Source of the DNA: a phage
DNA: 64,000 bases
Sequence record: PZ445429.1
Reading direction: 5' to 3' (one strand)
The position numbers and the translations under genes are program-made. The notes beneath the pieces are model-generated. The model searched no databases. It worked only from the letters and a program-made list of their open reading frames with translations, and was not told the DNA's origin. This document shows, piece by piece, positions 16,710 to 57,749 of the stretch (the stretch's first letter is position 1; each line of letters opens with the position of its first letter).

Positions 16710-17249
16710 TTACACCTTAAGTTTCTGAAGAGCCTTACACATTTCAAGATCTGGACTAAACTCCAGCATATAGCTGATAGCATTTAAATCTTGAAGGTTT
16801 ATTCCAGTCCTGCCATTTACAATAACAGTAGGGAATTGGTACATCATAGCACCAGCATCATCTAGGACACACCAATGCTTGAGCTTATATTTTTCGACGA
16901 AACGTAAAACAGAATTACCCCGAGATAAACCACCTCCAGTAAAATCTGTTGTACCAAGGAAACGATCGATCAAACCGAGTCCGGTCATAATCTGAACGTT
17001 CTCCATTTCATTTCGTACAGAAAACCATGAAGAGACCCCAACAATCATTATTGGGGAGGGTTTAAGAAAGTTCTGAAAAGCCTGGAGTAATGGCTTATAA
17101 ACCCAATCACTGCCAAAGAACAGCTTTTCACTGTCTGGAGCATGATGGTGAGAGATGCTCGAATTGAGCACCCCATCAATATCCAGGAAAATCACAGGAG
17201 TATTACTTATTTCCACTAGTAGCATCCCACGTCCAGACTTTAACTTCAT
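16710..17249 (-). CDS. HAD-superfamily phosphatase-like protein
   Basis: 179 aa; HAD motif I VIFLDIDGVLN; start codon uncertain. Confidence 0.5.
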   Translation of the reverse strand: MKLKSGRGMLLVEISNTPVIFLDIDGVLNSSISHHHAPDSEKLFFGSDWVYKPLLQAFQNFLKPSPIMIVGVSSWFSVRNEMENVQIMTGLGLIDRFLGTTDFTGGGLSRGNSVLRFVEKYKLKHWCVLDDAGAMMYQFPTVIVNGRTGINLQDLNAISYMLEFSPDLEMCKALQKLKV

Positions 17250-17391
17250 CAGTAAAAGGAACCGGAACCTTCAATTCACCTTTACCCCACATAACAGATA
17301 GGAACAGAGAATAAATGGTAATCATACCGATTAGGTTGACAAACCATACTAGACCTTTCCAGATACCCTTAAAAATCTTCTTCACCATATT
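17203..17391 (-). CDS. small membrane protein
   Basis: Internal ATG preceded by AGGGAG; hydrophobic segment LIGMITIYSLFLSVMWG. Confidence 0.45.
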   Translation of the reverse strand, partial: NMVKKIFKGIWKGLVWFVNLIGMITIYSLFLSVMWGKGELKVPVPFTDEVKVWTWDATSGNK

Positions 17392-17551
17392 CTCCCTCCT
17401 TAATAAGGAACTCTTTCCATTCTGCTGTATCCTCATAGATAACGCAGAAATCATCACTCTTCCATGAGAAGTCATCGGTAGCAAATTCGAAACGGTAGCA
17501 CCAACTACCGTCCGGCCATACTAAAAGATCACACATGCTCTTGCGGTGCAT
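17369..17551 (-). CDS. hypothetical small protein
   Basis: 60-aa ORF overlapping both neighbours; weak. Confidence 0.3.
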   Translation of the reverse strand: MHRKSMCDLLVWPDGSWCYRFEFATDDFSWKSDDFCVIYEDTAEWKEFLIKEGEYGEEDF

Positions 17552-18380
17552 AAATAGTTCCTTCCATAAAGGCTTCTACTTGACCAATGAAATGCTTGTT
17601 ACCAAAAACTTCGGCAGCTCCAGCACGCCATACAGTAACACCACGTTTCTCATACTCAAGCTGTTCATCATAACGAACTTGAGGATTAACAACCATCATC
17701 TTAGTTCCACGACATACAGCAGGAAATAATTCCCAGTTGAAGTTGATAACTTGGTTGCTACAACCCACCACAATAACCATGTCATTGCTAGTAAGAGTAT
17801 CAAACAGGTTGATTTGACCCATGTACCACGGAGCCGTCTCACCAAAGAATGTTACGTTTGGTTTTACCCATTCGTAATCCTCAGGGGCAATCGCAGTATA
17901 CCCAACATCTTCGATGATTTGGTTGCGACCCTGACGATAGATCACCTCTTTCAAGTACCCGTGAGCGTGAATGATTTCATCACGAGGGATACCAGCACGT
18001 TCCAGAAGGTCATCAACGTTAGTAGTGAAGTTCTTCACGCTATCCGCACCATAACGCTGGAACCATTCTGCAATTCGCAGATGGGCAATGTTAGGCTCAA
18101 CAGTCTGTAATTCCTGACGACGCATGTTGTAGAACTCATGAGTCTTGAGATATAGATCGTTACCATCTTCATCAATGCCAGGGAAACGAGCACTGAAGTA
18201 GTTAGGATCATCTTCACCACAGAAGCGACGGAAGCCAGCTTCAAAGTTAGGCAAGCTACATACTTCCTCTAGATCGTACTCATCCCACAAGGATTTCCCA
18301 CTAGCAGTATCAGTACGGAATGCACGGATACCACTATCAACACTTAAACCAGCACCACTAACAACGATTAGTCTACGCAT
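17529..18380 (-). CDS. Sir2-family NAD-dependent protein (no canonical zinc ribbon seen)
   Basis: 283 aa; GAGLSVDSGIRAFR, TTNVDDLLERAG, HAHG, FFGE, VVGCS motifs; no CxxC...CxxC module. Confidence 0.75.
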   Translation of the reverse strand: MRRLIVVSGAGLSVDSGIRAFRTDTASGKSLWDEYDLEEVCSLPNFEAGFRRFCGEDDPNYFSARFPGIDEDGNDLYLKTHEFYNMRRQELQTVEPNIAHLRIAEWFQRYGADSVKNFTTNVDDLLERAGIPRDEIIHAHGYLKEVIYRQGRNQIIEDVGYTAIAPEDYEWVKPNVTFFGETAPWYMGQINLFDTLTSNDMVIVVGCSNQVINFNWELFPAVCRGTKMMVVNPQVRYDEQLEYEKRGVTVWRAGAAEVFGNKHFIGQVEAFMEGTIYAPQEHV

Positions 18381-18574
18381 TATACGATTCCTTGCTTGAA
18401 TCCTTCGATGATATTTTGGAGCAGAATTGCTTCTTCTGGGCGAACCTTCTCTTGCTTAATAAGCATATCCAAACCAGCAATACAGGTAGCTACTCCAGCA
18501 TTATACCCAGCATTCCACTGCTCCATGAGCATATTTTCTAAATTACTTTTTAGATTCTGATTCAAGAAGTCCAT
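18380..18574 (-). CDS. hypothetical small protein
   Basis: Internal ATG (MDFLNQ...) preceded by GGAGG. Confidence 0.4.
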   Translation of the reverse strand: MDFLNQNLKSNLENMLMEQWNAGYNAGVATCIAGLDMLIKQEKVRPEEAILLQNIIEGFKQGIV

Positions 18575-18746
18575 AAAGTTTTTCCTCCAATTCCATAATA
18601 CGATTTTCGTAAGAAGCACGCAGCTTCTCGATGGACAAAGCACGAACTGTAACTTCATCTGAATTGATCGCTAGCTGAGCTAGATCTTCTGTTTCCATAC
18701 GTCCGTTGTAAATTAAGCGATATTTGAGATGTTTTACGTTTTTCAT
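18543..18746 (-). CDS. hypothetical small protein
   Basis: 67-aa ORF, coiled-coil-like. Confidence 0.35.
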   Translation of the reverse strand: MKNVKHLKYRLIYNGRMETEDLAQLAINSDEVTVRALSIEKLRASYENRIMELEEKLYGLLESESKK

Positions 18747-18755
18747 TCTTGTTCC

Positions 18756-19037
18756 TTAGTTCTGTACTGTAAACTCATTCTTATCACAGTGAGCATAATA
18801 ATACCCATACATACGATAAATTTTCACAGCCTTAGTAGACCCCTTCGATTCTTCATAATCGATCCAGAGCCACTTGTCTTTACCTACATAATGTACCCGA
18901 AACTTCTTAACTTTCTTATCATTCCATGTTGCAACAACACGACGATAATCAAATCCGCCCAACCAATCTAGAGCCTTACGTTCTTCACTAGGCTCTCCAA
19001 GATGGGAAACATCTACTTTAGGAAGCAATTCGCTCAT
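18756..19037 (-). CDS. hypothetical protein
   Basis: 93-aa ORF. Confidence 0.5.
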   Translation of the reverse strand: MSELLPKVDVSHLGEPSEERKALDWLGGFDYRRVVATWNDKKVKKFRVHYVGKDKWLWIDYEESKGSTKAVKIYRMYGYYYAHCDKNEFTVQN

Positions 19038-22116: not shown

Positions 22117-22359
22117 ATGGGAAACGTCGTACATCTGCACCGCAAAACTAAGATCCACCGTACTTCATTGAGTGCTGCTAATATGATTACACGTAAGGAA
22201 GGGGAAGAAAGTCCTAAGACTACCCTAGCGTGGAAAATTGTAGCCTCTAATCCAAATCGGCCTTTCAACTATAATGAACTGAGTACTTCTATAGACATTC
22301 TTATGGCTAAGGAAATACGACAGAAACTAACTGATATGACCGATAAACTTAAATGGTAA
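22117..22359 (+). CDS. hypothetical protein
   Basis: 80-aa ORF; terminator hairpin downstream. Confidence 0.4.
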   Translation: MGNVVHLHRKTKIHRTSLSAANMITRKEGEESPKTTLAWKIVASNPNRPFNYNELSTSIDILMAKEIRQKLTDMTDKLKW

Positions 22360-22482: not shown

Positions 22483-24813
22483 ATGAGCCATCGCATCGAA
22501 AAAGTAATTAAACGTGACGGTACTGTTCAGGACTTTGCTCCTGAAAAACTCAATGATTGGGCTGCATGGGCATGTAAAGATACTGACGTAAGTTGGTCTG
22601 CCGTAGTTATGGCTGCCCTGAAAAATCTACCCAAAGGTGTTGTAGATTCCGATACACTCCAAGATGTGTTAATTAAAGCTGCTGAAGGTCTTATCAAAGA
22701 CAATCCAGCATATGATACTGTAGCAAAGGAATTACGTCTTGCGCAGATGCGTAAACGCCTCTATGATTCCTTCGAACCACCTTCTCTACGTTTCTTCCAC
22801 GATCATATGGTTCGTGTCGGCGCTTGGGAAGACATGAGTGCATGGATTAGCGATGATCAGTTTGACGCTCTGAACCAAGTTATTGATCATGATCGCGATC
22901 GTTTATTCACCAGTGGTGGACTGAAACAGTTCTTCGACAAGTATTCCCGTCGTAATATTGCAACTGGTGAAATTTATGAAACCCCGCAGTTTGCCTACAT
23001 GGGTATGGCAATGGCGATGCTATCTCAACCTAACTGGACAATTCTCGATGCAATCGACCTCTACAACGCAATGTCACTCCATAAAATCAACGTGCCGACT
23101 CCACCTCTCGTGGGTCTTAGGAGCAGCGACCGCGGTTTTGCTTCTTGTTGTCTTGTTGATAGTACTGATACCCTCGATTCAATCGACACAGCCGAGCACA
23201 TCGTCTTCAAAATGGTCGCAGCCAGAGCGGGAATCGGGTATCATCTTGAAAGCCGATCAATTGCTGATCCGGTGCGAAATGGGGCATTCCCGCATTCCGG
23301 AAAACTGCCATATTATCGACACATTGACCGATCAGTAAAAGCTAACACTCAGCAAACCCGTGGTGGTTCTGCTACTGTGTCTTACCCATACTTCGATCCT
23401 GAAATCATTCAGTTGATGCAGGTTAAGCAGCAACGTGCTACAGACGAGAATAAAATCGATAAGATGGATTACTCTCTGAGCTTTAACAACCTTCTGTTAA
23501 AACGTTACCTGAAAAATGAAGATATTACGCTAATGTCCTACTTCTACGCACCAGAAGTTCATGAAGCGTTTTATGGCGAAGATGAGGCTAAGTTTGAAGA
23601 AATCTACGTGGCAGCGGAGAAACGTGTGGCATCTCTTACAAAGATCGACCACGAAGGAAAAACAATTCCAGCAGCTCCTAGAATCTCTGCAAAAGAAATC
23701 CTAGATACTTGGTTACGTATCCGTATGGAAACAGGGCGTATGTATGCTCATCACATTGGTGAATCTAACCGTCATGGTAACTTCCTTGACCCGATTCGTA
23801 TGACCAACCTTTGTGTTGAAATTACTCAGCCAACCCGTCCATTCCATCACATTACGGAGCTGTATAAGACCCAAGATCAGTTAGACGATATGCGTCCAGA
23901 AGATATTGGTGAAGTATCTCTGTGTAACTTAGGTGGTGTTGTACTAGGTCGTATGGAATCTCTGGCTGAATGGGAGAAAACTTGCTACATTCTTCTGAAA
24001 TTCGTTGATACAATCATCGAGATTCAGGATTACCCATTCCCAACTATGGAGTACACGGCTAAGAAACGTCGTAACGTTGGTATTGGTCTGATGAACGCAG
24101 CAGGTGCAATGGCAGCAGAAGGTTTGGCTTACGAAGGTGTTGAAGCCCGTAACTGGATTCACCGTGAAGCTGAAAAGCTGTCCTACTTCCTACATAAAGC
24201 CTCTGTACGTCTGGCTAAAGAACAAGGTGCATGTGACTGGTTTAATCGTACTAAGCCTTCGCAAGGAACTCTGGTAATCGACACGTACAAGAAAACTGTT
24301 GATGAACTGGTAACTGTAGGTCTAGAAATGGATTGGGAATCTCTGCGTGCAGATATTCTGAAATATGGTATGCGCAACTCTGTTCTGACTGCTCAGATGC
24401 CAGGTGAAAGTTCCTCTGTACTGCTAGGTGTTACTAACTCTATCGAACCGCCCCGTAAGATCGTATCTATCAAGGGTAGTGCAGTGAATAAAGTAATTGC
24501 AATTGCTCCAGGTGCAACTGATTGGGATACATTAATGAGCTATAAACTGGCTTATGATGTAGATCGTATCGAGTGGATCAAATGGGTAGCAACCATGCAG
24601 AAATTCTTCAGCCAGTCTATCAGTACGAATATGTACTATGACTACACCAAGTTCGAGAATGAAATCATTCCCGGCCCAGTAGTAGTTCGTGACTTTATGA
24701 CTGCTGTTAAGTACGGTTGGAAAACTTGGTACTACGCTAACTTCAACACTGAAAATGGTGGTGGAGCTGGTGAAGAAGCAGCAGGTTGTGCATCAGGTGG
24801 TTGTAACCTATAA
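22483..24813 (+). CDS. nrdA: ribonucleoside-diphosphate reductase large subunit (class Ia) with ATP-cone
   Basis: ~776 aa from ATG 22483 (RBS AAGGAAAG); ATP-cone VIKRDGT; terminator downstream. Confidence 0.9.
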   Translation: MSHRIEKVIKRDGTVQDFAPEKLNDWAAWACKDTDVSWSAVVMAALKNLPKGVVDSDTLQDVLIKAAEGLIKDNPAYDTVAKELRLAQMRKRLYDSFEPPSLRFFHDHMVRVGAWEDMSAWISDDQFDALNQVIDHDRDRLFTSGGLKQFFDKYSRRNIATGEIYETPQFAYMGMAMAMLSQPNWTILDAIDLYNAMSLHKINVPTPPLVGLRSSDRGFASCCLVDSTDTLDSIDTAEHIVFKMVAARAGIGYHLESRSIADPVRNGAFPHSGKLPYYRHIDRSVKANTQQTRGGSATVSYPYFDPEIIQLMQVKQQRATDENKIDKMDYSLSFNNLLLKRYLKNEDITLMSYFYAPEVHEAFYGEDEAKFEEIYVAAEKRVASLTKIDHEGKTIPAAPRISAKEILDTWLRIRMETGRMYAHHIGESNRHGNFLDPIRMTNLCVEITQPTRPFHHITELYKTQDQLDDMRPEDIGEVSLCNLGGVVLGRMESLAEWEKTCYILLKFVDTIIEIQDYPFPTMEYTAKKRRNVGIGLMNAAGAMAAEGLAYEGVEARNWIHREAEKLSYFLHKASVRLAKEQGACDWFNRTKPSQGTLVIDTYKKTVDELVTVGLEMDWESLRADILKYGMRNSVLTAQMPGESSSVLLGVTNSIEPPRKIVSIKGSAVNKVIAIAPGATDWDTLMSYKLAYDVDRIEWIKWVATMQKFFSQSISTNMYYDYTKFENEIIPGPVVVRDFMTAVKYGWKTWYYANFNTENGGGAGEEAAGCASGGCNL

Positions 24814-24822
24814 TAAAAACAA

Positions 24823-24850
24823 GGAGATCTTCGGGTCTCCTTTTTTCTTT
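24823..24850 (+). terminator. rho-independent terminator after nrdA
   Basis: GGAGATC-TTCG-GGTCTCC plus TTTTTTCTTT. Confidence 0.75.
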
Positions 24851-24860
24851 GAAATTTTAC

Positions 24861-24889
24861 TTGCTAATCGCTACCAGATTTGCTATAAT
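24861..24889 (+). promoter_or_regulatory. promoter upstream of HNH gene
   Basis: TTGCTA, 17 bp, TATAAT. Confidence 0.6.
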
Positions 24890-24913
24890 ATCTCTATATT
24901 AAGGAGATATACT

Positions 24914-25432
24914 GTGAAACCTCAACTAACAAAAGAATTTCTAGAGAAATATCTAGAACTCAGAGAAGATACTCTCTATTGGAAGCCAAGAGAGACTAAT
25001 AAAGGTGGATTTAATACTAGATTTGCTGGAAAACCTGTAGGAGCCGTCAATGGAAATGGCTACCTATGCTTCCGACTTAACGTGGAAGGTTATAGATGGG
25101 AATTAAGAAATCATGTAGTAATCTTCTGTCTCTATTATGGATATTACCCAACTAAGACAGTAGACCATAAAGATACAAATAAACTTAATAACCATCCTTT
25201 AAATCTACGAGAATCAACCGATGCTGGTAATGCCCAAAATAGGGGAGCCGGTAAAAACAATACCCATGGACATAAAAACCTAGAGCCTCTTAGTTCAGGA
25301 AACTGGAGGGTTAGGATAACACACAACGGTACTGTTTACAGATCTTCCGCAATGCCTCTAGAAAAAGCTCTAGAACATAGAGATATTAAACTTAAAGAAT
25401 TTCATGGCGAATACGCTAATAATGGAGAATAA
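24914..25432 (+). CDS. HNH homing endonuclease (free-standing, between nrdA and nrdB)
   Basis: GTG start after RBS TAAGGAGAT; HNH core DHKDTNKLNNHPLNLRESTDAGNAQN; own promoter at 24861-24889; paralog of 34849-35331. Confidence 0.7.
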   Translation: MKPQLTKEFLEKYLELREDTLYWKPRETNKGGFNTRFAGKPVGAVNGNGYLCFRLNVEGYRWELRNHVVIFCLYYGYYPTKTVDHKDTNKLNNHPLNLRESTDAGNAQNRGAGKNNTHGHKNLEPLSSGNWRVRITHNGTVYRSSAMPLEKALEHRDIKLKEFHGEYANNGE

Positions 25433-27965: not shown

Positions 27966-28319
27966 ATGTTAATTATACTATTATTTGTCATATTCTTTCT
28001 AAAACATTTTATGGCCGATTATCCACTCCAAACACCATATATGCTAAGAAAGACGCATAAAATAGGGTGGAAACTTCCATTATTAACCCATTCGCTAGTA
28101 CATGCTGGATTAACATTTGCAATTCTAATCCTATTCACATCACCAGGAATGTCTATAGCTTTAGCTATTATGGAATTAATTCTACACTTTATTATAGATT
28201 ATTGGAAAGCACAACGCTGTAAATACGCTATAAGCGATGCTAAGTTTTGGATAGCTTTAGGATTTGATCAGTTACTGCATTATCTGACATACGCCCTAAT
28301 AATCTTGATTATAATCTAA
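27966..28319 (+). CDS. small integral membrane protein
   Basis: 117 aa, multiple hydrophobic segments; terminator hairpin follows. Confidence 0.5.
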   Translation: MLIILLFVIFFLKHFMADYPLQTPYMLRKTHKIGWKLPLLTHSLVHAGLTFAILILFTSPGMSIALAIMELILHFIIDYWKAQRCKYAISDAKFWIALGFDQLLHYLTYALIILIII

Positions 28320-28324
28320 TTCAA

Positions 28325-28350
28325 ATAGCCCTTCGGGGCTATTATATTTA
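28325..28350 (+). terminator. terminator hairpin
   Basis: ATAGCCC-TTCG-GGGCTAT plus TATATTT. Confidence 0.6.
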
Positions 28351-28358
28351 AATTTCAT

Positions 28359-28387
28359 TTGCTTACTGAGTGAAATTCAAATATAAT
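28359..28387 (+). promoter_or_regulatory. N25-type early promoter
   Basis: TTGCTT, 17 bp, TATAAT. Confidence 0.65.
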
Positions 28388-28417
28388 ATACTTCTAATTT
28401 GACAGAAGGATTTAATA

Positions 28418-28996
28418 ATGACAGCCATAGTAGCATTTAAATATAAAGATAAAGTATACTTAGCTGGTGATCGTATGGGTTCTAATGGCTATACGAAACT
28501 GCTGGTTAAAAATCCGAAAGTATTCAAAATCTCTGATGATTTGTACTTCGGATACACTAGTTCCTTCTACATGGGACAATTACTAGAGCATAGCTTTACT
28601 GTACCACCACGTTTAGCAGATATTTCTGATGATAAATATTTATATACGGAAATAGTACCTAAATTACGTGATATGTTTAACCAGAAAGATTTTGGCGAAA
28701 AGAAAAATGAAAAATATGCTGAACCTAATCTGGGACAATTTATTATGCTCTACAAAGGAAGAATCTTTATTTTCCAATCTAATGCTTCTATTCTAGAAGT
28801 TGAATATGCCGGTGTAGGCTGTGGAGGAGAAGATGTACTTTCCAGTATTCGTACAGGTTTAGCTATTGCGGATTGTCGAGCCACAGATTTAGATGTAGAT
28901 GATATATTTGAAATCATTGATCTGGCTTTTACGCATTGTGCAGATTATATGTGTGGTGTATCTTCTCAACATGATGTTTTAGTAATTGGAGAATAA
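28418..28996 (+). CDS. HslV/proteasome-beta-like Ntn-hydrolase
   Basis: 192 aa; Thr right after Met (MTAIVAFKYKDKVYLAGDR), GVGCGGEDV glycine motif. Confidence 0.5.
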   Translation: MTAIVAFKYKDKVYLAGDRMGSNGYTKLLVKNPKVFKISDDLYFGYTSSFYMGQLLEHSFTVPPRLADISDDKYLYTEIVPKLRDMFNQKDFGEKKNEKYAEPNLGQFIMLYKGRIFIFQSNASILEVEYAGVGCGGEDVLSSIRTGLAIADCRATDLDVDDIFEIIDLAFTHCADYMCGVSSQHDVLVIGE

Positions 28997-28998
28997 AT

Positions 28999-29268
28999 AT
29001 GTCTATTCTTTTATCTGCTTTAGAAGCAAAACAAAATACTATTGCTAGCATTAAAAAGGAAGTAATTGACCTAGAATCACTTATTGCCGTAGAGATTGAC
29101 AAAGCTATTAAAGATAAAGAATTTAATTGTCACATCCAGGGATTAACTGAATACTCAGAAAACGCTAGAAATAGCGTCATGCAAAAACTTAGCAAACTAG
29201 GTTATGTTGTAGAAGCTAAGTATGAACAGCGTGAAGGTTTTTGGCTTGAAATTGATTGGAGCAAATAA
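28999..29268 (+). CDS. hypothetical protein
   Basis: 89-aa ORF; stop overlaps RNase H start (TAATG). Confidence 0.45.
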   Translation: MSILLSALEAKQNTIASIKKEVIDLESLIAVEIDKAIKDKEFNCHIQGLTEYSENARNSVMQKLSKLGYVVEAKYEQREGFWLEIDWSK

Positions 29269-31259: not shown

Positions 31260-31961
31260 ATGAAATTCAAGCCCTTTGGTATGCTGGACATTGAATCTCT
31301 AGGTACTCCAGGAAATTGCGGTACTACTCATATTGCAATGCCTTCTTTCGCTTTTGTAGCGATGCACGGAATTGATAAAGATCCTGATCTGGTATTCGTT
31401 ACTCTAGACGTTCAAGATCAGCTTAATGCGGGTGCTAAGGTAACTGCCTCTACTATTGCATTCTGGATGGATCAAGCTAAAAACAGTCCATCTGCGCTCC
31501 ATATTATGGAGGCTCTAAATGGTCGTAATCCTAAACTGATTGCCTTCCGTGATGGTAAGCATCACTGCACTAATGACGTAGGCTCTAATTATGCTGCCTT
31601 CTCTATGGCTCAGAACATTATGGAATTGTCTCTAGGAGATAATGCTCTGTATTACGGCAATGGCCCAGAGTTTGATATGACAATCTACTCTGCAAATACG
31701 TTCCATGCCGGAACCCATGAAGAAATAGTTCCGTGGAAATTCTGGAACTTAGGTAACGTTCGATCTTTCCGTAATCAGTGGATGCAAGCTGGTTATAGCT
31801 ATAAAGATCTAGAAGCCGAAGGTGCTAGCTGGGCAAAAGCTAAAATGGAAAAGATGGACACCATTCGTTATGGAATCTATCCTGTGAAGCATGATCCAGC
31901 ATTCGATGCTTTAGTTGAAAGTTATTGTGTAGCCGTCATGATCGAAAAAATCAAAATTTGA
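31260..31961 (+). CDS. DEDD-type 3'-5' exonuclease-like protein
   Basis: 233 aa; Exo I-like LDIESLG, Exo III-like YPVKHDPAFDALVESY. Confidence 0.45.
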   Translation: MKFKPFGMLDIESLGTPGNCGTTHIAMPSFAFVAMHGIDKDPDLVFVTLDVQDQLNAGAKVTASTIAFWMDQAKNSPSALHIMEALNGRNPKLIAFRDGKHHCTNDVGSNYAAFSMAQNIMELSLGDNALYYGNGPEFDMTIYSANTFHAGTHEEIVPWKFWNLGNVRSFRNQWMQAGYSYKDLEAEGASWAKAKMEKMDTIRYGIYPVKHDPAFDALVESYCVAVMIEKIKI

Positions 31962-31962
31962 T

Positions 31963-31991
31963 TTGCTTTCAGCTCCAAAATTCTGTATAAT
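31963..31991 (+). promoter_or_regulatory. N25-type early promoter
   Basis: TTGCTT, 17 bp, TATAAT then TTCATAAATTTGAGAG. Confidence 0.7.
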
Positions 31992-32031
31992 ATATTCATA
32001 AATTTGAGAGAACAACAAAAGGAAAACAATT

Positions 32032-32214
32032 ATGCCAGTATCTAAAAACGTCCGTAAAAATGGTAAAGTAGCAAAACGTAACCTGGGTCTGCGTCGTATG
32101 GCTGAACGTCAGTCCGGCATCCAGAAAATCTTTAACGTACTGAATCGCGCCAATCCGAATATTGATAACAGTTCTGATACTGTTCTGCGCACTCTGCTCG
32201 CAATCGGTCTGTAA
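32032..32214 (+). CDS. hypothetical small basic protein
   Basis: 60-aa ORF, promoter plus RBS AAAGGAAAAC. Confidence 0.5.
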   Translation: MPVSKNVRKNGKVAKRNLGLRRMAERQSGIQKIFNVLNRANPNIDNSSDTVLRTLLAIGL

Positions 32215-32268
32215 TAGACCGTTTTTAAAACAAATTCAAATCTCAAACTTCATATAAGGAAGCAAATA

Positions 32269-32907
32269 ATGACTACTCGTATCTCTAAAACTCGTGCTCT
32301 GGCAACTATCAAGTCTCTGGAAGCTAAAATCCGTAAAGCTACTGAACAACAGCTTTTGATTGCTGTTGGTGAAGGTAAAGACAAGAATCAAGTTGTCGTT
32401 GGTGCTGCAATCGAAGTAGATGCTCTGTCTACTCGTATTAAAACTGATTTCCAGTCTCTGCTGGATATGATGACCCAGCGTGATCATCTGAAAGCAGCGC
32501 TGATCAAGAGCAATGCTGAAACTGTTGTAGAGATCGGTTCCCGCTCTATGACTGTTGCGGAAGCAATCGAAGCTAAGCGTTCTATGGAACTCAAAGCTCA
32601 GTTGCTGGCTAACATGCGTAAGCAGTTCCATGCTGCTACTGTTAAGTTTAACACTCAAAAGGCTCAGTTTGATGCCAAGTATGAGCGTTTGCAGGATACC
32701 ATGGCTACCCGTGACAAGAAGACTTCCGAGGATGAAGTTAAGATGCAGCTTAACCTGCTGGAACTCAAGAACACTCCGTTCCTGATCGATCCGCTGGAGC
32801 TGGAAAAGCTGATCAAGCAACACGACGAAGAGTACCAGGACTTTGCAACCAACGTTGACTTTGTTCTGTCTGAGTCCAACGCCTCTACTTTTATCGAAGT
32901 AGAGTAA
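32269..32907 (+). CDS. hypothetical protein
   Basis: 212-aa ORF, E. coli-like codon usage, RBS AAGGAAG. Confidence 0.6.
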   Translation: MTTRISKTRALATIKSLEAKIRKATEQQLLIAVGEGKDKNQVVVGAAIEVDALSTRIKTDFQSLLDMMTQRDHLKAALIKSNAETVVEIGSRSMTVAEAIEAKRSMELKAQLLANMRKQFHAATVKFNTQKAQFDAKYERLQDTMATRDKKTSEDEVKMQLNLLELKNTPFLIDPLELEKLIKQHDEEYQDFATNVDFVLSESNASTFIEVE

Positions 32908-33291
32908 TAATTTAAAAGACTAGTAAATCGGTAGACGAAAGCCCAAGCATCTTACCTCGCAGCAGCGGTTGAAATACGAGGTTAAATAAGACCGCTGACC
33001 ATACTATAAAGTATAATCTATTGGAGATTATGTTTATTACATCAGACATTTAATCTGACACGTAAAAACAAAAGGTCGTTGGTAGTACCAACACAACTTC
33101 AAAGATCAACGCTCAAGTATGAAAGCTGAAAAGTTAAAAGCACTCAAACTTCTAACCTTCTAAAGCTAAAAGATGCAAAGTATTCGTTGATGATTCAAAC
33201 CCTAGATCAAAGGTACATGGCTCATAAGATATGGCCTGTGGCGCCTCTAGGCTGTTTATCGGTTTACTAGTCTCTCAATTTAAAAATGTAT

Positions 33292-38289: not shown

Positions 38290-39285
38290 TTAAGCCGGCA
38301 GTTTAGCCTGCAGACCAGCCAGAGTCTGAGTGATAGCACCAAGACTTACAGCGATTTGGTTGATTACCTGACCGTTAGCACCACTACCCTGAGCGATAGC
38401 TTCACGCAGACGGCATTCGTTCAGTTCGTCCTGAATACGCGCAGTAGTTACACCAGCGATTGCAGACTGAAGTTCACAGCAGCATTCAGCGATCTGACGT
38501 TCCAGAGCGTTCTGGTTAGCACAAGCCTGAGCAGCTACAGCAGCGAACTGGTTGTTAGTCTGGATAGACTGAGCAAACATGATCTGAGCGGTATCGAACT
38601 TGTCTTGAGCACGTGCGATCTGGTTAGCAGCGAAAGCTTGATCCATCTGGCGAGAAAGATCGAACTGACCCTGAATAACGTTACGAGTTTCCTGACAGAT
38701 CTGGTTGGACAGGTTAGCACCAGTACCGTAGATCGTAGTCAGAAGCTGTTGAGTACTAGCAGCTTGAGCAGCTCCTACACCATTTACTGCACTCAGAACA
38801 GCACCAGTACCCTGATTAGCTTCAGTACGAGTAGTGTTGATTGCAGCTAGAATACTTGCAGTATCCTGGTTAGAAAGGATCGCGTCCACAGCAGTTCCCT
38901 CAGCGGCAACACCAGCACCGCGGCCAAAACCACCGAAACCACCGAATCCACCTGTTAATAGAGCACCGATTAAGATAGCTCCGAATAGACCCATACCTTC
39001 ACCACCGAAAGCACCGTTAGCAACTGCTGGGTAACCACCCATTAGGCCAGGGAAGCCACTAGTGAATACGTTTACTGGTTCTTGCATTTTATGTTTTCCA
39101 TGTTTATGACAATGTTCATCATCGTCATCTTCTTCATCATCTTCATCGTGTTCACGATGTTCTTTTTCGTAGGCTTTGACCTTCTCCCACTTTTTCTTGT
39201 CTGATTCTTCGTGACGACGCAGTTCTGCTGCTACGCCAGCGACCGTATCAGGACTCTTAGCTACTTCTTCTGTCATTTTTGACAC
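38290..39285 (-). CDS. glycine-zipper membrane protein with acidic/His-rich N-terminus and Gln/Ala-rich tail
   Basis: 331 aa; EHDEDDEEDDDDEHCHKHGKHK, GAILIGALLTGGFGGFGGFG, Q/A-rich C-terminus. Confidence 0.55.
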   Translation of the reverse strand: MSKMTEEVAKSPDTVAGVAAELRRHEESDKKKWEKVKAYEKEHREHDEDDEEDDDDEHCHKHGKHKMQEPVNVFTSGFPGLMGGYPAVANGAFGGEGMGLFGAILIGALLTGGFGGFGGFGRGAGVAAEGTAVDAILSNQDTASILAAINTTRTEANQGTGAVLSAVNGVGAAQAASTQQLLTTIYGTGANLSNQICQETRNVIQGQFDLSRQMDQAFAANQIARAQDKFDTAQIMFAQSIQTNNQFAAVAAQACANQNALERQIAECCCELQSAIAGVTTARIQDELNECRLREAIAQGSGANGQVINQIAVSLGAITQTLAGLQAKLPA

Positions 39286-39482
39286 CTCCTAGTATATAGA
39301 AAATGTGTGTCTCTTTGATCACTCATCCATAACATATACTTTACACTACCCCAGCGAAAATGTCAAGGGGTCTTTAAAAATTGCCCCCGGATTTTTAGTG
39401 GGGTAACAATTTCTGGACCTCACCACTCACCTGCTACCCTTAAGTGCCCTGCGATTTTCCACTAAAAAGTTTAAAAATTCGA

Positions 39483-39511
39483 TTGCTTGAATGCTAAATT
39501 CTCTATATAAT
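39483..39511 (+). promoter_or_regulatory. N25-type early promoter (nadR-like operon)
   Basis: TTGCTT, 17 bp, TATAAT then TATAAATTTGAGAGAGG. Confidence 0.7.
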
Positions 39512-39541
39512 ATATTTATAAATTTGAGAGAGGAATCAAAT

Positions 39542-40597
39542 ATGATTAAGACTGGTCTAGTAATTGGTAAGTTCGCACCATTAACGCGTGGTCATATTAA
39601 CCTAATAAACACAGCAGCAACTATGTGTGAACGAGTTATTGTTGTAGTTAGTCATGATAATCGTTGGCTGGATAAGCAGAACACACGTGATCAGGAAGTA
39701 TTACAGTTAAAGAATCGACTTCGTTGGTTAGAACAAACTTACGCGGATATTGAGCACATTTCGGTAGAGTACATTATTGAAGATGATATTCCTGAATATC
39801 CGAATGGTTGGCCGGAATATGCTAGAATCCTTAATGAAAATTACGGACATTTGCCTGAGATCACCATTTTCTCTAGCGAACTAGACTATGATGCAGAATA
39901 TAAGAAATATCTGCCGAAGTTTGGTCATTATATTGTAGATTCTGATCGGACTCGTGTTCCAATCTCAGCTACAATGATTCGTAATGATCTTATGAAGTAT
40001 TGGGAGTTTCTTCCTAGCGTAGTTCGTAAAGATTACGTGCGTAAGGTTGTAATCATTGGGACTGAAAGCTCGGGAAAGACTACTTTAACAAAATACCTTG
40101 CGAAGCTATACAACACTTCGTGGGTAGAAGAATATGGCCGAACGTATTGTGAAGTTGATCTAGTTGGTAACGAAAATCTACTTACCAGTGAAGATTATAG
40201 TAAAATTGCGTTCAGACACAAAGAGCTAGAGTTTGAAGCAGAACGTACTGCAAATAAGATCATGTTTGTGGATACAAATGCTTTTATTACTGAGTTCTAC
40301 CACAGACTTTATGAACATCGTAAGAATCCTGTGGTTACAGCAATTGCAAAAGAAGAACATTACGATTTAGTAATTGTTCTAGCGCCTACTGTTAAGTGGG
40401 TAGATGATGGTTTACGTATTAACTCCGATCGTTCAATTACTTCTGAACTGTTCGAGCAGATGAAGAAAGAATTTCCAAATCAGTTCCCTGAAGGGCGTAC
40501 TGTTTACATCGACTCCCCGGACTACAAAGTTCGTATGGACGAAGCAGTAAACGCAGTAGACTGGCTGATTCATCACTTTAACGTTGGAGAGTTTTAA
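39542..40597 (+). CDS. nadR: NadR-like bifunctional NMN adenylyltransferase / ribosylnicotinamide kinase (no HTH domain)
   Basis: ATG 39542; GKFAPLTRGH motif, C-terminal Walker A GTESSGKTT. Confidence 0.8.
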   Translation: MIKTGLVIGKFAPLTRGHINLINTAATMCERVIVVVSHDNRWLDKQNTRDQEVLQLKNRLRWLEQTYADIEHISVEYIIEDDIPEYPNGWPEYARILNENYGHLPEITIFSSELDYDAEYKKYLPKFGHYIVDSDRTRVPISATMIRNDLMKYWEFLPSVVRKDYVRKVVIIGTESSGKTTLTKYLAKLYNTSWVEEYGRTYCEVDLVGNENLLTSEDYSKIAFRHKELEFEAERTANKIMFVDTNAFITEFYHRLYEHRKNPVVTAIAKEEHYDLVIVLAPTVKWVDDGLRINSDRSITSELFEQMKKEFPNQFPEGRTVYIDSPDYKVRMDEAVNAVDWLIHHFNVGEF

Positions 40598-40598
40598 T

Positions 40599-41276
40599 AT
40601 GACTAACTATCTTGTAAATGACTTTAAAAACTGGAAACCTTTGGAATATCTGTGGCTGTTTATAGCAGTCGCCTTTATTAGTTTAGCAAACTATAATGGT
40701 ACAGCTCTAGATTGGGCTACTGCAATAACCAATGTGGTTTGTGTTATTCTGGTTGCAAAAGGACGTGTTTCCAACTATATTTGGGGCTTAGTGGGTGTTC
40801 TTACATACGGTATTACAGCTTTAAACGCAGATCTTTATGGTAATGCTGCACTAAACCTGCTATACTACGTTCCTATGCAGTTTTATGGAATGTACTTATG
40901 GCATAAAAATAAGCCAAGTAATCTGCCAGATGTTCCAACTAAGGTTCTGAATAAAGCCCAAGCTCTGCTGACTCTAGGGATTCTAGCAGTAGCTACTTTA
41001 GGTTACGGCAGCTTCCTTGCTACTACCGCTGATCCATTCCCAATGCTTGACGCATTTACTGCGGTTGGTAGTGTGATTGCTATGTGGCTTATGGTCAAAC
41101 AATATGCTGAACAATGGCTGATTTGGATTGTTATTAACATTGGTACTGTGTACATTTGGCTTGTAACTGCTCAATCTACAGGTGCATCTTACGCAATCCT
41201 AGCAATGTGGCTAGTATTCTTAGGCAACTCTATTCTTGGAGCTTATAAAGGATACTTTGTACGCGTTAACAAATAA
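40599..41276 (+). CDS. pnuC: PnuC-like nicotinamide riboside transporter
   Basis: ATG 40599; polytopic membrane protein with SNYIWGL motif; adjacent to nadR-like gene. Confidence 0.7.
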   Translation: MTNYLVNDFKNWKPLEYLWLFIAVAFISLANYNGTALDWATAITNVVCVILVAKGRVSNYIWGLVGVLTYGITALNADLYGNAALNLLYYVPMQFYGMYLWHKNKPSNLPDVPTKVLNKAQALLTLGILAVATLGYGSFLATTADPFPMLDAFTAVGSVIAMWLMVKQYAEQWLIWIVINIGTVYIWLVTAQSTGASYAILAMWLVFLGNSILGAYKGYFVRVNK

Positions 41277-55969: not shown

Positions 55970-56253
55970 AACCAGAGCCATCTCATGAGTTAAAGCAAGC
56001 TCATGTTGACTGGCCTAAAGGACTTCAGCCGTGTAGCTTTGATTTCAAATTCGAAAAGAAATTAGCTACAAATGGTGAAGATGGCGTAGTAGTTGTTGTA
56101 CCTTACAAAGATTGGAATGCAAAAGCAAAATGCGAGGAAGCAGTTTACTCTTACATTTCACGACTGACCGGTATGGTTTGCTTCTATCGTCAAGATTTAC
56201 AAGAAAAACGTTGCTTAGTTTACTATCCACCCATTACAAATAGGAAAGATTAA
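55900..56253 (+). CDS. outer-membrane spanin-like lipoprotein
   Basis: 117 aa; lipobox LLAAAITITGC; start embedded in preceding ORF. Confidence 0.45.
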   Translation: MFNWKLGVLLAAAITITGCAEEIKPEPSHELKQAHVDWPKGLQPCSFDFKFEKKLATNGEDGVVVVVPYKDWNAKAKCEEAVYSYISRLTGMVCFYRQDLQEKRCLVYYPPITNRKD

Positions 56254-57005
56254 TGTCAGTATTAGTCGGTTTACATGGTGAGGCTGGTGCGGGAAAAGAT
56301 ACCGTTGCAGAATTAATGATTGACTGGTGTAATGACACGTTCCCAACGTGTTTATCCCGTCGTTACAGTTTTGCTAAACCCGTTTACGAACTTGCATCCG
56401 TAATCCTCGGGGTAACTCCAGAGTTTCTGGGAGAGCGCAGGGGAAAAGAGATTGACCAATGGTTTACGGTCACACAATCTCAATTGGAGCGAGCTAGAGA
56501 CGTATGGTTTAAGTATGGTATCGATAAGTTTGAGGACTTCTCGTACGTTTGGCCGATTTTTGAAGGAAAATACCTTGATCCTCAGCAGTTAATTGGGCAA
56601 GCTGATGATGCGCTGTATAGCGTGTTTATCTCCCCAAGAAAAATGCTACAGCTTGTAGGTACTGAGTTAGGAAGGCAGCTGGTGCATGAACGCATTTGGC
56701 TCATAATTCTGGAGCAATCCATCGATAAAGACGACCCAGACGTCGCAATCGTTACCGATGTGCGTTTCCCCAATGAGGGAGAGCTAATCATGGAAACCAA
56801 TACTCTAGATATGGATTCCATGCTTATTAAGGTTGAATCTGGTATTACTAATAAGTATCGCATCGAGACAGATCATCCGTCTGAAAGCGGTATTCCTGAA
56901 AAATACATTTCTCATAAATTTGAGAATACCTTCAACGGACTTGATGCACTTCGTACCGATGTGTACCACTTCTGTGACTTAGAGCTAGAACCACTAGTTG
57001 GATAA
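56253..57005 (+). CDS. deoxynucleoside monophosphate kinase-like P-loop protein
   Basis: 250 aa; P-loop GLHGEAGAGKDT. Confidence 0.55.
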   Translation: MSVLVGLHGEAGAGKDTVAELMIDWCNDTFPTCLSRRYSFAKPVYELASVILGVTPEFLGERRGKEIDQWFTVTQSQLERARDVWFKYGIDKFEDFSYVWPIFEGKYLDPQQLIGQADDALYSVFISPRKMLQLVGTELGRQLVHERIWLIILEQSIDKDDPDVAIVTDVRFPNEGELIMETNTLDMDSMLIKVESGITNKYRIETDHPSESGIPEKYISHKFENTFNGLDALRTDVYHFCDLELEPLVG

Positions 57006-57017
57006 TTAAGGATCACT

Positions 57018-57617
57018 ATGACTAATAAGAAAGAAGAAAAGACTAACCTGTTTCACACTGTTCGCCAATCTAACGAATATACCTTTTTCTTTGATGAAGA
57101 ATTAGGCTCACCGGATGAGTATCGTGACCTATCCATGATACTGATGCAGGCTGGTGAAGATGATGAAATTAATCTGATGATTAATGGGCCTGGTGGTTAC
57201 GTTGATACTGCTGCACAACTATCTAACTTAATCGCTAACTGTCGTGGAACGGTTATTGGACACCTGCTCGGTCCTAGTGCTTCTGCTTACTGCACAATCT
57301 TCCTGTCTTGCCACGGTTGGGTTGTACATCCACATGCTACGCTTATGGGGCATACGTTCTCTGGCGGATTCTGTGAGAAAGGTCAAGAAATCAAGAAAGC
57401 CTATGAATCTTACAACCAGTTTGTAGAAGATATGATGCTAGATGTTTACTTCCCGTTCTTCTCTATTGACGAGATCGAGGACATGGTAAAAGAGAATAAG
57501 AATATCTACCTCAACAGCAAAGAAATCAATAAGCGTATTGAAATTTTGGCGAATTATCGCAAAGAGCAATATAGTAAAGCTCAAGCTCCGCATCCAGAAG
57601 AACATGGAGAAGTGTAA
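57018..57617 (+). CDS. ClpP-like serine protease
   Basis: 199 aa; INGPGGYV, GPSASAYC, VVHPH align with ClpP motifs; terminator downstream. Confidence 0.5.
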   Translation: MTNKKEEKTNLFHTVRQSNEYTFFFDEELGSPDEYRDLSMILMQAGEDDEINLMINGPGGYVDTAAQLSNLIANCRGTVIGHLLGPSASAYCTIFLSCHGWVVHPHATLMGHTFSGGFCEKGQEIKKAYESYNQFVEDMMLDVYFPFFSIDEIEDMVKENKNIYLNSKEINKRIEILANYRKEQYSKAQAPHPEEHGEV

Positions 57618-57627
57618 GTAGTTTTAA

Positions 57628-57658
57628 GCCAGAGTTTAACGACTCTGGCTTTTCTTTT
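57628..57658 (+). terminator. rho-independent terminator after ClpP-like gene
   Basis: GCCAGAG...CTCTGGC plus TTTTCTTTT. Confidence 0.75.
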
Positions 57659-57720: not shown

Positions 57721-57749
57721 TTGTAATTTTCCTCTAGAATTAGTATAAT
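57721..57749 (+). promoter_or_regulatory. sigma70-like promoter upstream of holin/endolysin pair
   Basis: TTGTAA, 17 bp, TATAAT; TTGACA also at 57673. Confidence 0.5.

What the first reader, a model, noticed from the sequence alone, without database searches (positions are those of the whole stretch)
28418..28996. HslV/proteasome-like Ntn-hydrolase and a ClpP-like protease in the same early region
ORF 28418-28996 begins MTAIVAFKYKDKVYLAGDR (Thr directly after Met, GD motif, later GVGCGG), matching the HslV/proteasome beta fold. ORF 57018-57617 carries ClpP-like GPGG / SAS / H motifs. Neither has an adjacent ATPase partner, suggesting they dock onto host unfoldases (HslU, ClpX/ClpA) to redirect host proteolysis.
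Basis: partly seen in the sequence, partly recalled or inferred. Interest (0 to 1): 0.5.

Follow-up and report, generated by a model that had tools for sequence, protein, structure and literature searches.

The report
Two orphan protease genes in T5-like phage
A T5-like Salmonella phage carries a proteasome-like and a ClpP-like protease gene, both real and probably active, but both are already annotated, are not a pair, and show no sign of being built to plug into the host's unfolding motors.

The parts
28418..28996 (+). Proteasome-family (group I, HslV/BPH-like) N-terminal-threonine peptidase, 192 aa, no propeptide. Catalytic Thr2 (Thr1 after Met removal), Asp18, Lys34; G-C-G (134-136) in place of the G-S-G motif; pore loop at residues 90-107.
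   Evidence: Annotated 'peptidase HslV family' in RefSeq.
57018..57617 (+). ClpP-fold serine peptidase, 199 aa, ortholog of T5.042. Oxyanion Gly (INGPGG), Ser89, His112, and Asn162 at the position of ClpP Asp171. N-terminal residues 1-14 modelled below pLDDT 50; no secondary structure before residue 20.
   Evidence: Annotated 'ATP-dependent protease' in RefSeq.
27966..28319 (+). DUF3307 membrane protein, 117 aa. First gene of the three-gene insert between thymidylate synthase and RNase H that T5 lacks.
28999..29268 (+). 89-aa ORF of unknown function (PHROG 13270). It starts 3 nt after the proteasome-like stop codon. Third gene of the insert; not found next to the proteasome-like gene in more distant phages.
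56253..57005 (+). Deoxynucleoside monophosphate kinase, immediately upstream of the ClpP-like gene and apparently in the same transcription unit.
57626..57651 (+). Terminator-like hairpin (11-bp stem plus T run) directly after the ClpP-like stop codon. It separates the gene from the holin/endolysin unit. T5 has a terminator annotated at the same place.
57721..57749 (+). Promoter-like site (TTGTAA-17-TATAAT) upstream of the holin gene. It marks the start of the next unit.

Best explanation
These are two unlinked accessory early genes of a T5-like phage. Each encodes a small peptidase that most likely works without a dedicated unfoldase and without a canonical host one.

(1) ORF 28418-28996 is a proteasome-family threonine peptidase from the compact 'group I' set of proteasome homologs that phages spread among bacteria. 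It most resembles the AAH cluster of Fuchs et al. 2021. It is not an HslV ortholog. It has no propeptide, so removal of Met1 by host methionine aminopeptidase would expose the Thr1 nucleophile (inferred). The Thr1/Asp17/Lys33 triad is complete (shown). By analogy with HslV and BPH it probably forms a ring or double ring whose long pore loop restricts entry to peptides or unfolded chains (inferred).

(2) ORF 57018-57617 belongs to a phage-specific ClpP-fold clade, the T5.042 family. Members sit in early, nucleotide-metabolism gene modules in at least seven phage groups. It keeps the oxyanion Gly, Ser and His (shown). It has lost ClpP's N-terminal region and the hydrophobic Clp-ATPase docking pocket (shown by alignment), so it probably acts as an ATP-independent Ser-His peptidase (inferred).

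Both are dispensable extras rather than core functions. T5 lacks gene 1, and knockdown of T5.042 has no fitness cost. The likely role is degradation or processing of unstructured host or phage polypeptides during takeover; the substrates are unknown.
For: Identity and fold.

Proteasome-like active site: Thr2, Asp18, Lys34, Gly45 and Gly134 are present in 159 of 159 family members. Position 135 is Cys in 103 and Ser in 45. The family is large, with 6704 representatives at E<=1e-3, nearly all starting at Met-Thr.

ClpP-like active site: Ser89 and His112 are present in 17 of 17 close relatives and in all 13 phage sequences from seven phage groups.

No ATPase partner: none in the window or the Sepoy genome. 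There is no conserved neighbour in 23 bacterial loci and no partner in distant phage loci. The same conclusion was published for these families (PMC8665760, Discussion).

Pore loop: 18 residues here, family median 15, against 8 in E. coli HslV. BPH, which also has a long loop, has no known unfoldase (PMC5777263).

ClpP docking pocket and N-terminus are not conserved.

Accessory status: T5 lacks the proteasome-like gene. T5.042 is 'Not Fit' in CRISPRi-ART (PMC11879866, supplementary file 16).

The ClpP-like gene is not the head protease: Sepoy has a separate head maturation protease beside its capsid gene. ClpP-like relatives lie next to dnk, PhoH, frd or dCMP deaminase genes.
Against: No biochemical data exist for either protein. 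Oligomeric state, activity and substrates are all inferred.

In E. coli HslV the peptidase is nearly inactive without HslU, so a stand-alone family member might still need an activator.

Alternative alignments of helix H1 place HslV's HslU-pocket residues Phe54 and Phe57 opposite different phage residues. One alignment keeps a Phe at Phe54. Loss of the HslU pocket is therefore not demonstrated.

Asn162 in place of the triad Asp may mean the T5/Epseptimavirus ClpP-like protein is weakly active or inactive.

Detection of the BF23 ortholog in purified virions (PMC10644984) hints at a structural or injected role that this explanation does not predict.
Confidence: 0.55

Rival explanations
1. One reading: the two phage peptidases replace host HslV and ClpP on host HslU and ClpX/ClpA rings, redirecting host ATP-dependent proteolysis.
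For: There is no phage ATPase partner. The hosts of most phages carrying the proteasome-like gene are Salmonella, E. coli, Vibrio and Aeromonas, taxa that encode HslU and ClpX (general knowledge). HslV-type peptidases are normally weak without an activator (PMC6429459, introduction). One alignment keeps a Phe at HslV Phe54.
Against: ClpP-like protein: the pocket residues are polar or variable, and ClpP's N-terminal region and first helix are absent.

Proteasome-like protein: there is no HslV-specific model hit. It is only 13-19% identical to, and equidistant from, BPH, HslV and 20S beta. It has a long pore loop instead of HslV's short linker. Family members occur in Actinobacteria, where the 2021 survey records no HslV (PMC8665760, Table 1).

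T5 carries only one of the two genes.
Confidence: 0.12
2. The ClpP-like protein is a morphogenetic or virion-associated protease. It would process a virion or ejected protein, for example the tape-measure protein, or be carried into the cell at low copy number.
For: Its best NCBIfam match is the ClpP-related head maturation protease model (40.7 bits, E 2.3e-10), against 15-21 bits for the cellular ClpP models. Several head-protease PHROGs also match. The BF23 ortholog (ORF45) was detected in purified virions with 3 peptides, at an intensity similar to the tail terminator and tail completion proteins (PMC10644984, Table 1).
Against: The score is far below that model's cutoff of 120. The phage has a separate head maturation protease in the capsid module. 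The gene follows dnk in an early unit ending at its own terminator. Its relatives in seven phage groups sit in DNA or nucleotide metabolism modules, not structural ones. Knockdown in T5 has no fitness effect. Dihydrofolate reductase was also found in the BF23 virion preparation, so low-level carry-over is possible.
Confidence: 0.15
3. One or both proteins are non-catalytic: decoys or poison subunits that co-assemble with, or titrate, host ClpP or HslV, or scaffolds.
For: Asn162 replaces the catalytic Asp in the T5/Epseptimavirus lineage, and 7 of 17 close relatives have Asn. Cys replaces the proteasomal Ser129-equivalent residue in 65% of the proteasome-like family.
Against: The nucleophiles and their direct partners are strictly conserved at down to about 25-30% identity: Thr1, Asp17 and Lys33 in 159 of 159, and Gly, Ser and His in all 13 phage sequences. 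Such strict conservation is more typical of active enzymes. Sequence identity to host ClpP and HslV is too low for BLAST to detect, which makes mixed rings unlikely.
Confidence: 0.08

Closest known systems
AAH / group I proteasome homologs of bacteria and phages (Fuchs, Alva, Lupas 2021, PMC8665760)
   Same: Compact subunit of about 180-190 aa with helices H1-H4 and no C-terminal H5. No propeptide. Thr1/Asp17/Lys33 triad. Found in tailed phages and, often beside phage-type genes, in Proteobacteria, Firmicutes, Actinobacteria and others. No co-occurring AAA+ partner.
   Different: Assignment to AAH rather than the smaller CPH cluster was not checked against the authors' reference sequences. The T5-like branch carries Cys at the Ser129-equivalent position and a Lys/Glu-rich 18-residue pore loop.
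HslV (ClpQ), the peptidase of HslUV
   Different: Only about 19% identity, and no hit to HslV-specific models. The pore loop is about 10 residues longer, and no counterpart of the Arg86/Arg89/Lys90 cluster was identified. There is no hslU gene alongside. Cys replaces Ser124. Conservation of the HslU tail pocket is unresolved.
BPH (betaproteobacterial proteasome homolog; PDB 5OVS, PMC5777263)
   Different: The BPH loop is strongly acidic, whereas this one has mixed Lys/Glu charge. Only 13% identity. BPH is chromosomal in Betaproteobacteria, not phage-borne.
ClpP (MEROPS S14)
   Different: 15-22% identity. Asp171 is replaced by Asn. The N-terminal region and helix A are missing. Hydrophobic pocket residues are replaced by Asn, His or Thr. 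Scores are far below the NCBIfam ClpP cutoffs. The gene is not next to a clpX-like gene.
ClpP-related phage head maturation proteases (NCBIfam NF045542; PHROG 1684 and 94)
   Same: Closest curated sequence models. Both are phage-encoded stand-alone ClpP-fold proteases that work without Clp ATPases.
   Different: The score is below the cutoff (40.7 against 120). The gene lies in an early nucleotide-metabolism unit, and the phage has a separate head protease next to its capsid gene.

Membership tests
Proteasome/Ntn-hydrolase T1 family (Pfam PF00227) | Sequence match above Pfam's gathering score, and the alpha-beta-beta-alpha proteasome fold | tested here: met
Proteasome/Ntn-hydrolase T1 family (Pfam PF00227) | N-terminal Thr nucleophile with Asp17 and Lys33 | tested here: met
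   Thr2, Asp18 and Lys34 (Met numbering) are invariant in 18 of 18 and 159 of 159 relatives. They align to the same residues of HslV and 20S beta.
HslV (ClpQ) orthologs | Match to an HslV-specific curated model | tested here: not met
   The NCBIfam scan at E<=1 returns only weak hits to 20S_bact_beta (14.7 bits) and arc_protsome_B (12.6 bits), and no HslV model. E. coli HslV does not detect the ORF by tblastn.
HslV (ClpQ) orthologs | Encoded with, or co-occurring with, the AAA+ partner HslU | tested here: not met
   There is no HslU homolog in the window or the Sepoy genome. None is found beside 23 bacterial relatives or in distant phage loci. Relatives occur in Actinobacteria, where the 2021 survey records no HslV (PMC8665760, Table 1).
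HslV (ClpQ) orthologs | Short H2-S7 pore linker carrying the basic cluster Arg86/Arg89/Lys90 (PMC5777263) | tested here: not met
   The loop is 18 residues here (KDFGEKKNEKYAEPNLGQ) and the family median is 15, against 8 aligned residues in E. coli HslV. The Gly-to-Gly anchor distance is 88 against 74.
HslV (ClpQ) orthologs | Pocket for the HslU C-terminal tail (Phe54, Phe57, Gln114 in E. coli HslV; PMC6429459) | tested here: inconclusive
   Alternative alignments of helix H1 differ by 1-3 residues. The MAFFT alignment gives Phe54->Phe50 (kept) and Phe57->Gly53, while alignments made by eye place Phe54 and Phe57 opposite Tyr, Gln or Glu. No structural superposition output was available.
AAH cluster of Fuchs et al. 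2021 | Compact group I subunit without H5, found in phages plus Alphaproteobacteria, Actinobacteria and other phyla | tested here: met
   The model has H1-H4 and ends in a strand, with no H5. Relatives occur in Devosia, Leisingera, Actinoallomurus, Amycolatopsis, Paenibacillus and others and in diverse large phages.
AAH cluster of Fuchs et al. 2021 | Clusters with the authors' reference sequence WP_035979212 | not tested
   The reference sequence could not be retrieved with these tools. The accessions recovered for the bacterial relatives were different ones.
[quoted passage not shown] | About 140 residues and lacking helix H2 (PMC8665760) | tested here: not met
   The protein is 192 aa, and H2 is modelled at residues 71-89 with high confidence.
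ClpP (MEROPS S14; TIGR00493) | ClpP/crotonase-like fold and a match above Pfam's CLP_protease threshold | tested here: met
ClpP (MEROPS S14; TIGR00493) | Ser97-His122-Asp171 catalytic triad | tested here: not met
   Ser89 and His112 are present and invariant. The Asp171 position is Asn162 here and in T5.042. Among 17 close relatives it is Asp in 10 and Asn in 7.
ClpP (MEROPS S14; TIGR00493) | N-terminal gating region (residues 1-19) and the hydrophobic pocket that binds Clp-ATPase IGF/LGF loops (residue list in bioRxiv 10.1101/2023.03.01.530711) | tested here: not met
   The N-terminus is non-homologous, variable in length, and modelled at low confidence (residues 1-14 below pLDDT 50). Tyr60->Asn, Phe82->Asn, Ile90->His and Leu114->His. 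The pocket positions are variable across 13 phage relatives.
ClpP (MEROPS S14; TIGR00493) | Score above the curated equivalog cutoff | tested here: not met
   TIGR00493 scores 15.1 bits against a cutoff of 308.6. PRK00277 scores 19.6 against 249.
ClpP-related head maturation protease (NF045542) | Score above the cutoff, and a position in the head-morphogenesis module | tested here: not met
   40.7 bits against a cutoff of 120. The gene follows dnk in an early unit. A separate head maturation protease lies next to the major head protein gene.

The most novel reading that the evidence does not exclude
The most novel reading not excluded: large virulent phages carry a toolkit of unfoldase-independent, self-compartmentalising peptidases. 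These would be expressed alongside nucleotide-metabolism genes and would selectively destroy host proteins, for example immune effectors or stress regulators, or recycle host polypeptides. Alternatively, the proteasome-like ring does capture host HslU through a non-canonical interface. A further speculative variant comes from the ClpP-like gene lying directly after PhoH in two unrelated phage genera: the enigmatic PhoH-like ATPase might be its working partner.
Probability: 0.1. Interest if true: 0.65.

Novelty: already known. Interest (0 to 1): 0.25.

Why it matters
No function is known for any phage-encoded proteasome homolog or for the T5.042-type ClpP-like proteins, although both families are widespread. 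The proteasome-like family has 6704 cluster representatives, and the ClpP-like protein matches 1315 phage records. If a substrate were found, such as a host defence protein, it would add a new class of phage counter-measure, and it would give the first function for the stand-alone proteasome relatives catalogued in 2021. As it stands, this finding restates existing annotation and adds a mechanistic guess that the sequence evidence mostly argues against.

Tried and rejected
1. Conserved partner genes around the proteasome-like gene. All-against-all BLAST of neighbours in 23 bacterial loci, plus inspection of five phage contexts, found nothing conserved. The flanking DUF3307 and 89-aa ORFs are specific to Epseptimavirus.

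2. Residue-level test of the HslU tail pocket (Phe54, Phe57, Gln114). Abandoned as inconclusive because alternative alignments of helix H1 disagree (against alignments by eye).

3. Direct assignment to the published AAH cluster through accession numbers. The reference accession was not recovered.

4. C-terminal extensions of longer family members, scanned against Pfam for clues. No domains were found.

5. Literature searches for functional data on phage HslV-like or T5 ClpP-like proteins. They yielded only annotation-level mentions, the BF23 virion proteomics and the CRISPRi-ART 'Not Fit' call. There is no T5 fitness entry for the proteasome-like gene because T5 lacks it.

6. The idea that the ClpP-like ORF is the phage's prohead protease. 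Rejected on gene context.

7. The idea that the two genes form a functional pair. Rejected because T5 carries only one and they sit in separate transcription units 28 kb apart.

Full report
**What the window is.** The 1.5 kb around the finding is 100% identical to Salmonella phage Sepoy (NC_048760; Demerecviridae, Markadamsvirinae, Epseptimavirus). Over its full length the window is an 83-99% identical mosaic relative of Sepoy. It covers the early arm of a T5-like genome: replication genes, nrdAB, frd, thy, rnh, a large tRNA cluster, NAD salvage genes, dnk and the lysis genes.

**Observation.** Both ORFs are present exactly as described.

- ORF 28418-28996 (192 aa) matches Pfam Proteasome over the whole profile: 38.5 bits against a cutoff of 22.4. 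It also matches PHROG 1040, 'peptidase HslV family'.
- ORF 57018-57617 (199 aa) matches Pfam CLP_protease: 30.8 bits against 20.2. It also matches PHROG 1827, 'ATP-dependent protease'.
- The AlphaFold2 models are confident, with pLDDT 89.7 and 82.4.

**Both genes are already annotated.** RefSeq calls them 'peptidase HslV family' (YP_009845310) and 'ATP-dependent protease / serine protease' (YP_009845244). The identical proteins were deposited with phage EPS7 (ACB97546, ACB97488). T5 has carried the ClpP-like annotation as T5.042.

**Proteasome-like protein: active site.**
- Thr2, Gly17-Asp18, Lys34, Gly45 and Gly134 are invariant in 18 close and moderately distant homologs and in 159 family members from an exhaustive HMM search.
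- The proteasomal Ser129/HslV Ser124 position is Cys in 103 of the 159 and Ser in 45.
- Nearly every relative starts Met-Thr with no propeptide. Met excision would therefore expose the nucleophile; this step is inferred.

**Proteasome-like protein: family.**
- The family is very large: 6704 representatives at E<=1e-3 and 836 at E<=1e-30.
- In the phage collection it is patchy, matching only 196 records. These are Epseptimavirus, an Enterobacter T5-like phage, Aeromonas and Vibrio phages of about 110-140 kb, Asteriusvirus and other jumbo phages, and Geobacillus virus E3.
- Bacterial copies occur in Alphaproteobacteria, Actinobacteria, Firmicutes, Planctomycetes and others. Some have phage-type neighbours, and no neighbour is conserved across loci.
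- This is the picture published by Fuchs, Alva and Lupas in 2021 (PMC8665760). They describe group I proteasome homologs (BPH, AAH, CPH, PPH) spread by phages, with 'no co-occurring AAA+ interactors'.
- Size and helix content exclude PPH, which is about 140 aa and lacks H2. AAH is the best fit. I could not compare directly with the authors' reference sequence.

**Is it an HslV that would use host HslU?** Several results argue against this.
- No HslV-specific NCBIfam model is hit.
- The protein is equidistant from BPH, HslV and 20S beta, at 13-19% identity.
- The loop after helix H2 is 18 residues here and has a family median of 15. E. coli HslV has 8 aligned residues there.
- The literature treats the short HslV linker as a correlate of HslU gating. 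It treats the long BPH loop as a correlate of independence from an unfoldase (PMC5777263; PMC8665760, section 3.3).
- Relatives live in Actinobacteria, a phylum without an HslV entry in the survey's Table 1.
- A residue-level test of the HslU tail pocket (Phe54, Phe57, Gln114; PMC6429459) was inconclusive because the alignment of H1 is ambiguous.
- HslU docking is therefore unsupported and disfavoured, but it is not excluded.

**Genomic setting of the proteasome-like gene.**
- In T5, thy (T5.092) and rnh (T5.091) are neighbours separated by 133 bp.
- The window has a 1.3-kb insert of three genes at that spot: a DUF3307 membrane protein, the proteasome-like gene and an 89-aa ORF.
- An Enterobacter T5-like phage has thy, a 63-aa ORF, the proteasome-like gene and rnh instead. 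Only the peptidase gene is common to both inserts.
- No terminator, and no promoter above the chance level, separates the gene from the surrounding nrd-frd-thy-rnh early genes.

**ClpP-like protein: sequence features.**
- Ser89 and His112 are invariant in 17 close relatives.
- Together with the oxyanion Gly, they are also invariant in all 13 phage sequences compared, which span Tequintavirus, Epseptimavirus, Vibrio T5-like phages, Otagovirus, Barbavirus, Pakpunavirus, an Acinetobacter phage and a Straboviridae Vibrio phage.
- The ClpP Asp171 position is Asn162 here and in T5.042. It is Asp in 10 of the 17 close relatives.
- The features that let ClpP work with ClpX or ClpA are missing. There is no counterpart of the N-terminal region and helix A; residues 1-14 are modelled below pLDDT 50 and the segment is variable across relatives.
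- Pocket positions mapped against the published ADEP/IGF site list (bioRxiv 10.1101/2023.03.01.530711) are Asn52, Met54, Asn74, His82, Leu84, His104 and Ala178. They are not conserved across the family.

**ClpP-like protein: context and published data.**
- Curated models place it nearer to ClpP-related phage head maturation proteases (40.7 bits) than to cellular ClpP (15-21 bits). Both scores are far below their cutoffs.
- It is not the head protease. Sepoy has a separate one beside the major head protein gene.
- The gene follows dnk and ends at a strong terminator-like hairpin at 57626-57651. A promoter-like site for the holin gene follows. T5 has the same layout.
- Relatives in other phage groups also sit among DNA and nucleotide metabolism genes. 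Some lie directly after PhoH or frd.
- Two published data points exist. The BF23 ortholog was detected at low level in purified virions and its function was called unknown (PMC10644984). T5.042 is 'Not Fit' in a genome-wide knockdown screen (PMC11879866 supplement).

**ATPase partner.** Walker-A ORFs in the window are helicases, PhoH and a NadR-like protein. tblastn with E. coli HslU and ClpX against the window and the whole Sepoy genome gives only a P-loop match in the NadR-like gene.

**Conclusion.** The two genes are independent accessory early genes, and T5 has only one of them. The best-supported reading is that both are stand-alone peptidases that do not use canonical host unfoldase docking. 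That is fairly firm for the ClpP-like protein and tentative for the proteasome-like one. Substrates and biological role remain unknown. An ATP-independent role in clearing or processing unstructured host or phage polypeptides during takeover is my best guess and is marked as inference. Interest is low to moderate: the underlying open question, what phage proteasome homologs do, is real, but the finding does not advance it.

Noticed in passing
window 27966-29268: The DUF3307 membrane protein, the proteasome-like gene and an 89-aa ORF form a 1.3-kb insert between thymidylate synthase and RNase H. In phage T5 those two genes are adjacent, 133 bp apart. An Enterobacter T5-like phage (L032) has a different small ORF plus the peptidase gene at the same spot.
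   Followed up: yes
L033:3001-3552 and L033:3570-4454 (Aeromonas phage 2L372D): Two adjacent proteasome-like genes. The first is an ortholog of the window's gene. The second is a 294-aa protein starting V-TTIAYK...SDGR, with a G-S-G-S motif and a C-terminal extension of roughly 130 aa (Pfam Proteasome E 2e-5). This could be a two-subunit phage proteasome-like particle.
   Followed up: partly
L035:2065-2673 and L035:3001-3594 (Escherichia jumbo phage BAU.Micro_ELP-22, Asteriusvirus): A ClpP/NfeD-like 'protease' with a hydrophobic N-terminus (weak Pfam CLP_protease hit, E 0.004) lies two genes upstream of that phage's proteasome-like gene. This is a second case of both protease types in one large phage.
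   Followed up: partly
L036:4214-5579 (Pseudomonas phage phiPsa374); L037:4198-5720 (Rheinheimera phage Barba23A); L039 (Acinetobacter phage Ab7): The ClpP-like gene lies directly downstream of a PhoH-like ATPase gene in two unrelated phage genera, with an 8-nt overlap in phiPsa374, and about 2 kb downstream of one in a third phage. This may only reflect shared membership of the nucleotide-metabolism module, but it is the one recurrent ATPase neighbour seen.
   Followed up: partly
window 57626-57651 and 57721-57749: An 11-bp-stem terminator-like hairpin sits immediately after the ClpP-like stop codon. A TTGTAA-17-TATAAT promoter-like site follows, ahead of the holin gene. The lysis genes are therefore a separate unit from dnk and the ClpP-like gene, as annotated in T5.
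   Followed up: yes
window 57018-57617, residue 162: The catalytic Asp of the ClpP triad is Asn in the T5/Epseptimavirus lineage, but Asp in more distant T5-like relatives and several other phage groups. Ser and His stay invariant.
   Followed up: yes
window 28418-28996, residue 135: The residue equivalent to proteasome Ser129/HslV Ser124 is Cys in 103 of 159 family members and Ser in 45. The significance for catalysis is unknown.
   Followed up: partly
proteins P0051, P0056, P0061, P0067, P0081, P0094, P0116: Some family representatives are 300-390 aa long. They carry C-terminal extensions of 100-200 aa with no Pfam match. These resemble the 'with C-terminal extension' variants described in 2021.
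   Followed up: partly
window about 22117-22359 and 32527-33165 (Sepoy gp129 and gp145 equivalents; L001:14733-14975 and 24628-25266): RefSeq names an 80-aa ORF next to PhoH 'tail length tape measure protein' and a 212-aa early-region ORF 'tail fiber protein'. Given their size and position these are probably annotation-transfer errors.
   Followed up: no
window about 17176-18895 and 39207-40941 (L001:9277-10996 and 31308-33042): The early arm carries two Sir2-like genes and a NadR-like/PnuC NAD-salvage pair. This cluster of NAD-related genes could be relevant to NAD-depleting host defences.
   Followed up: no
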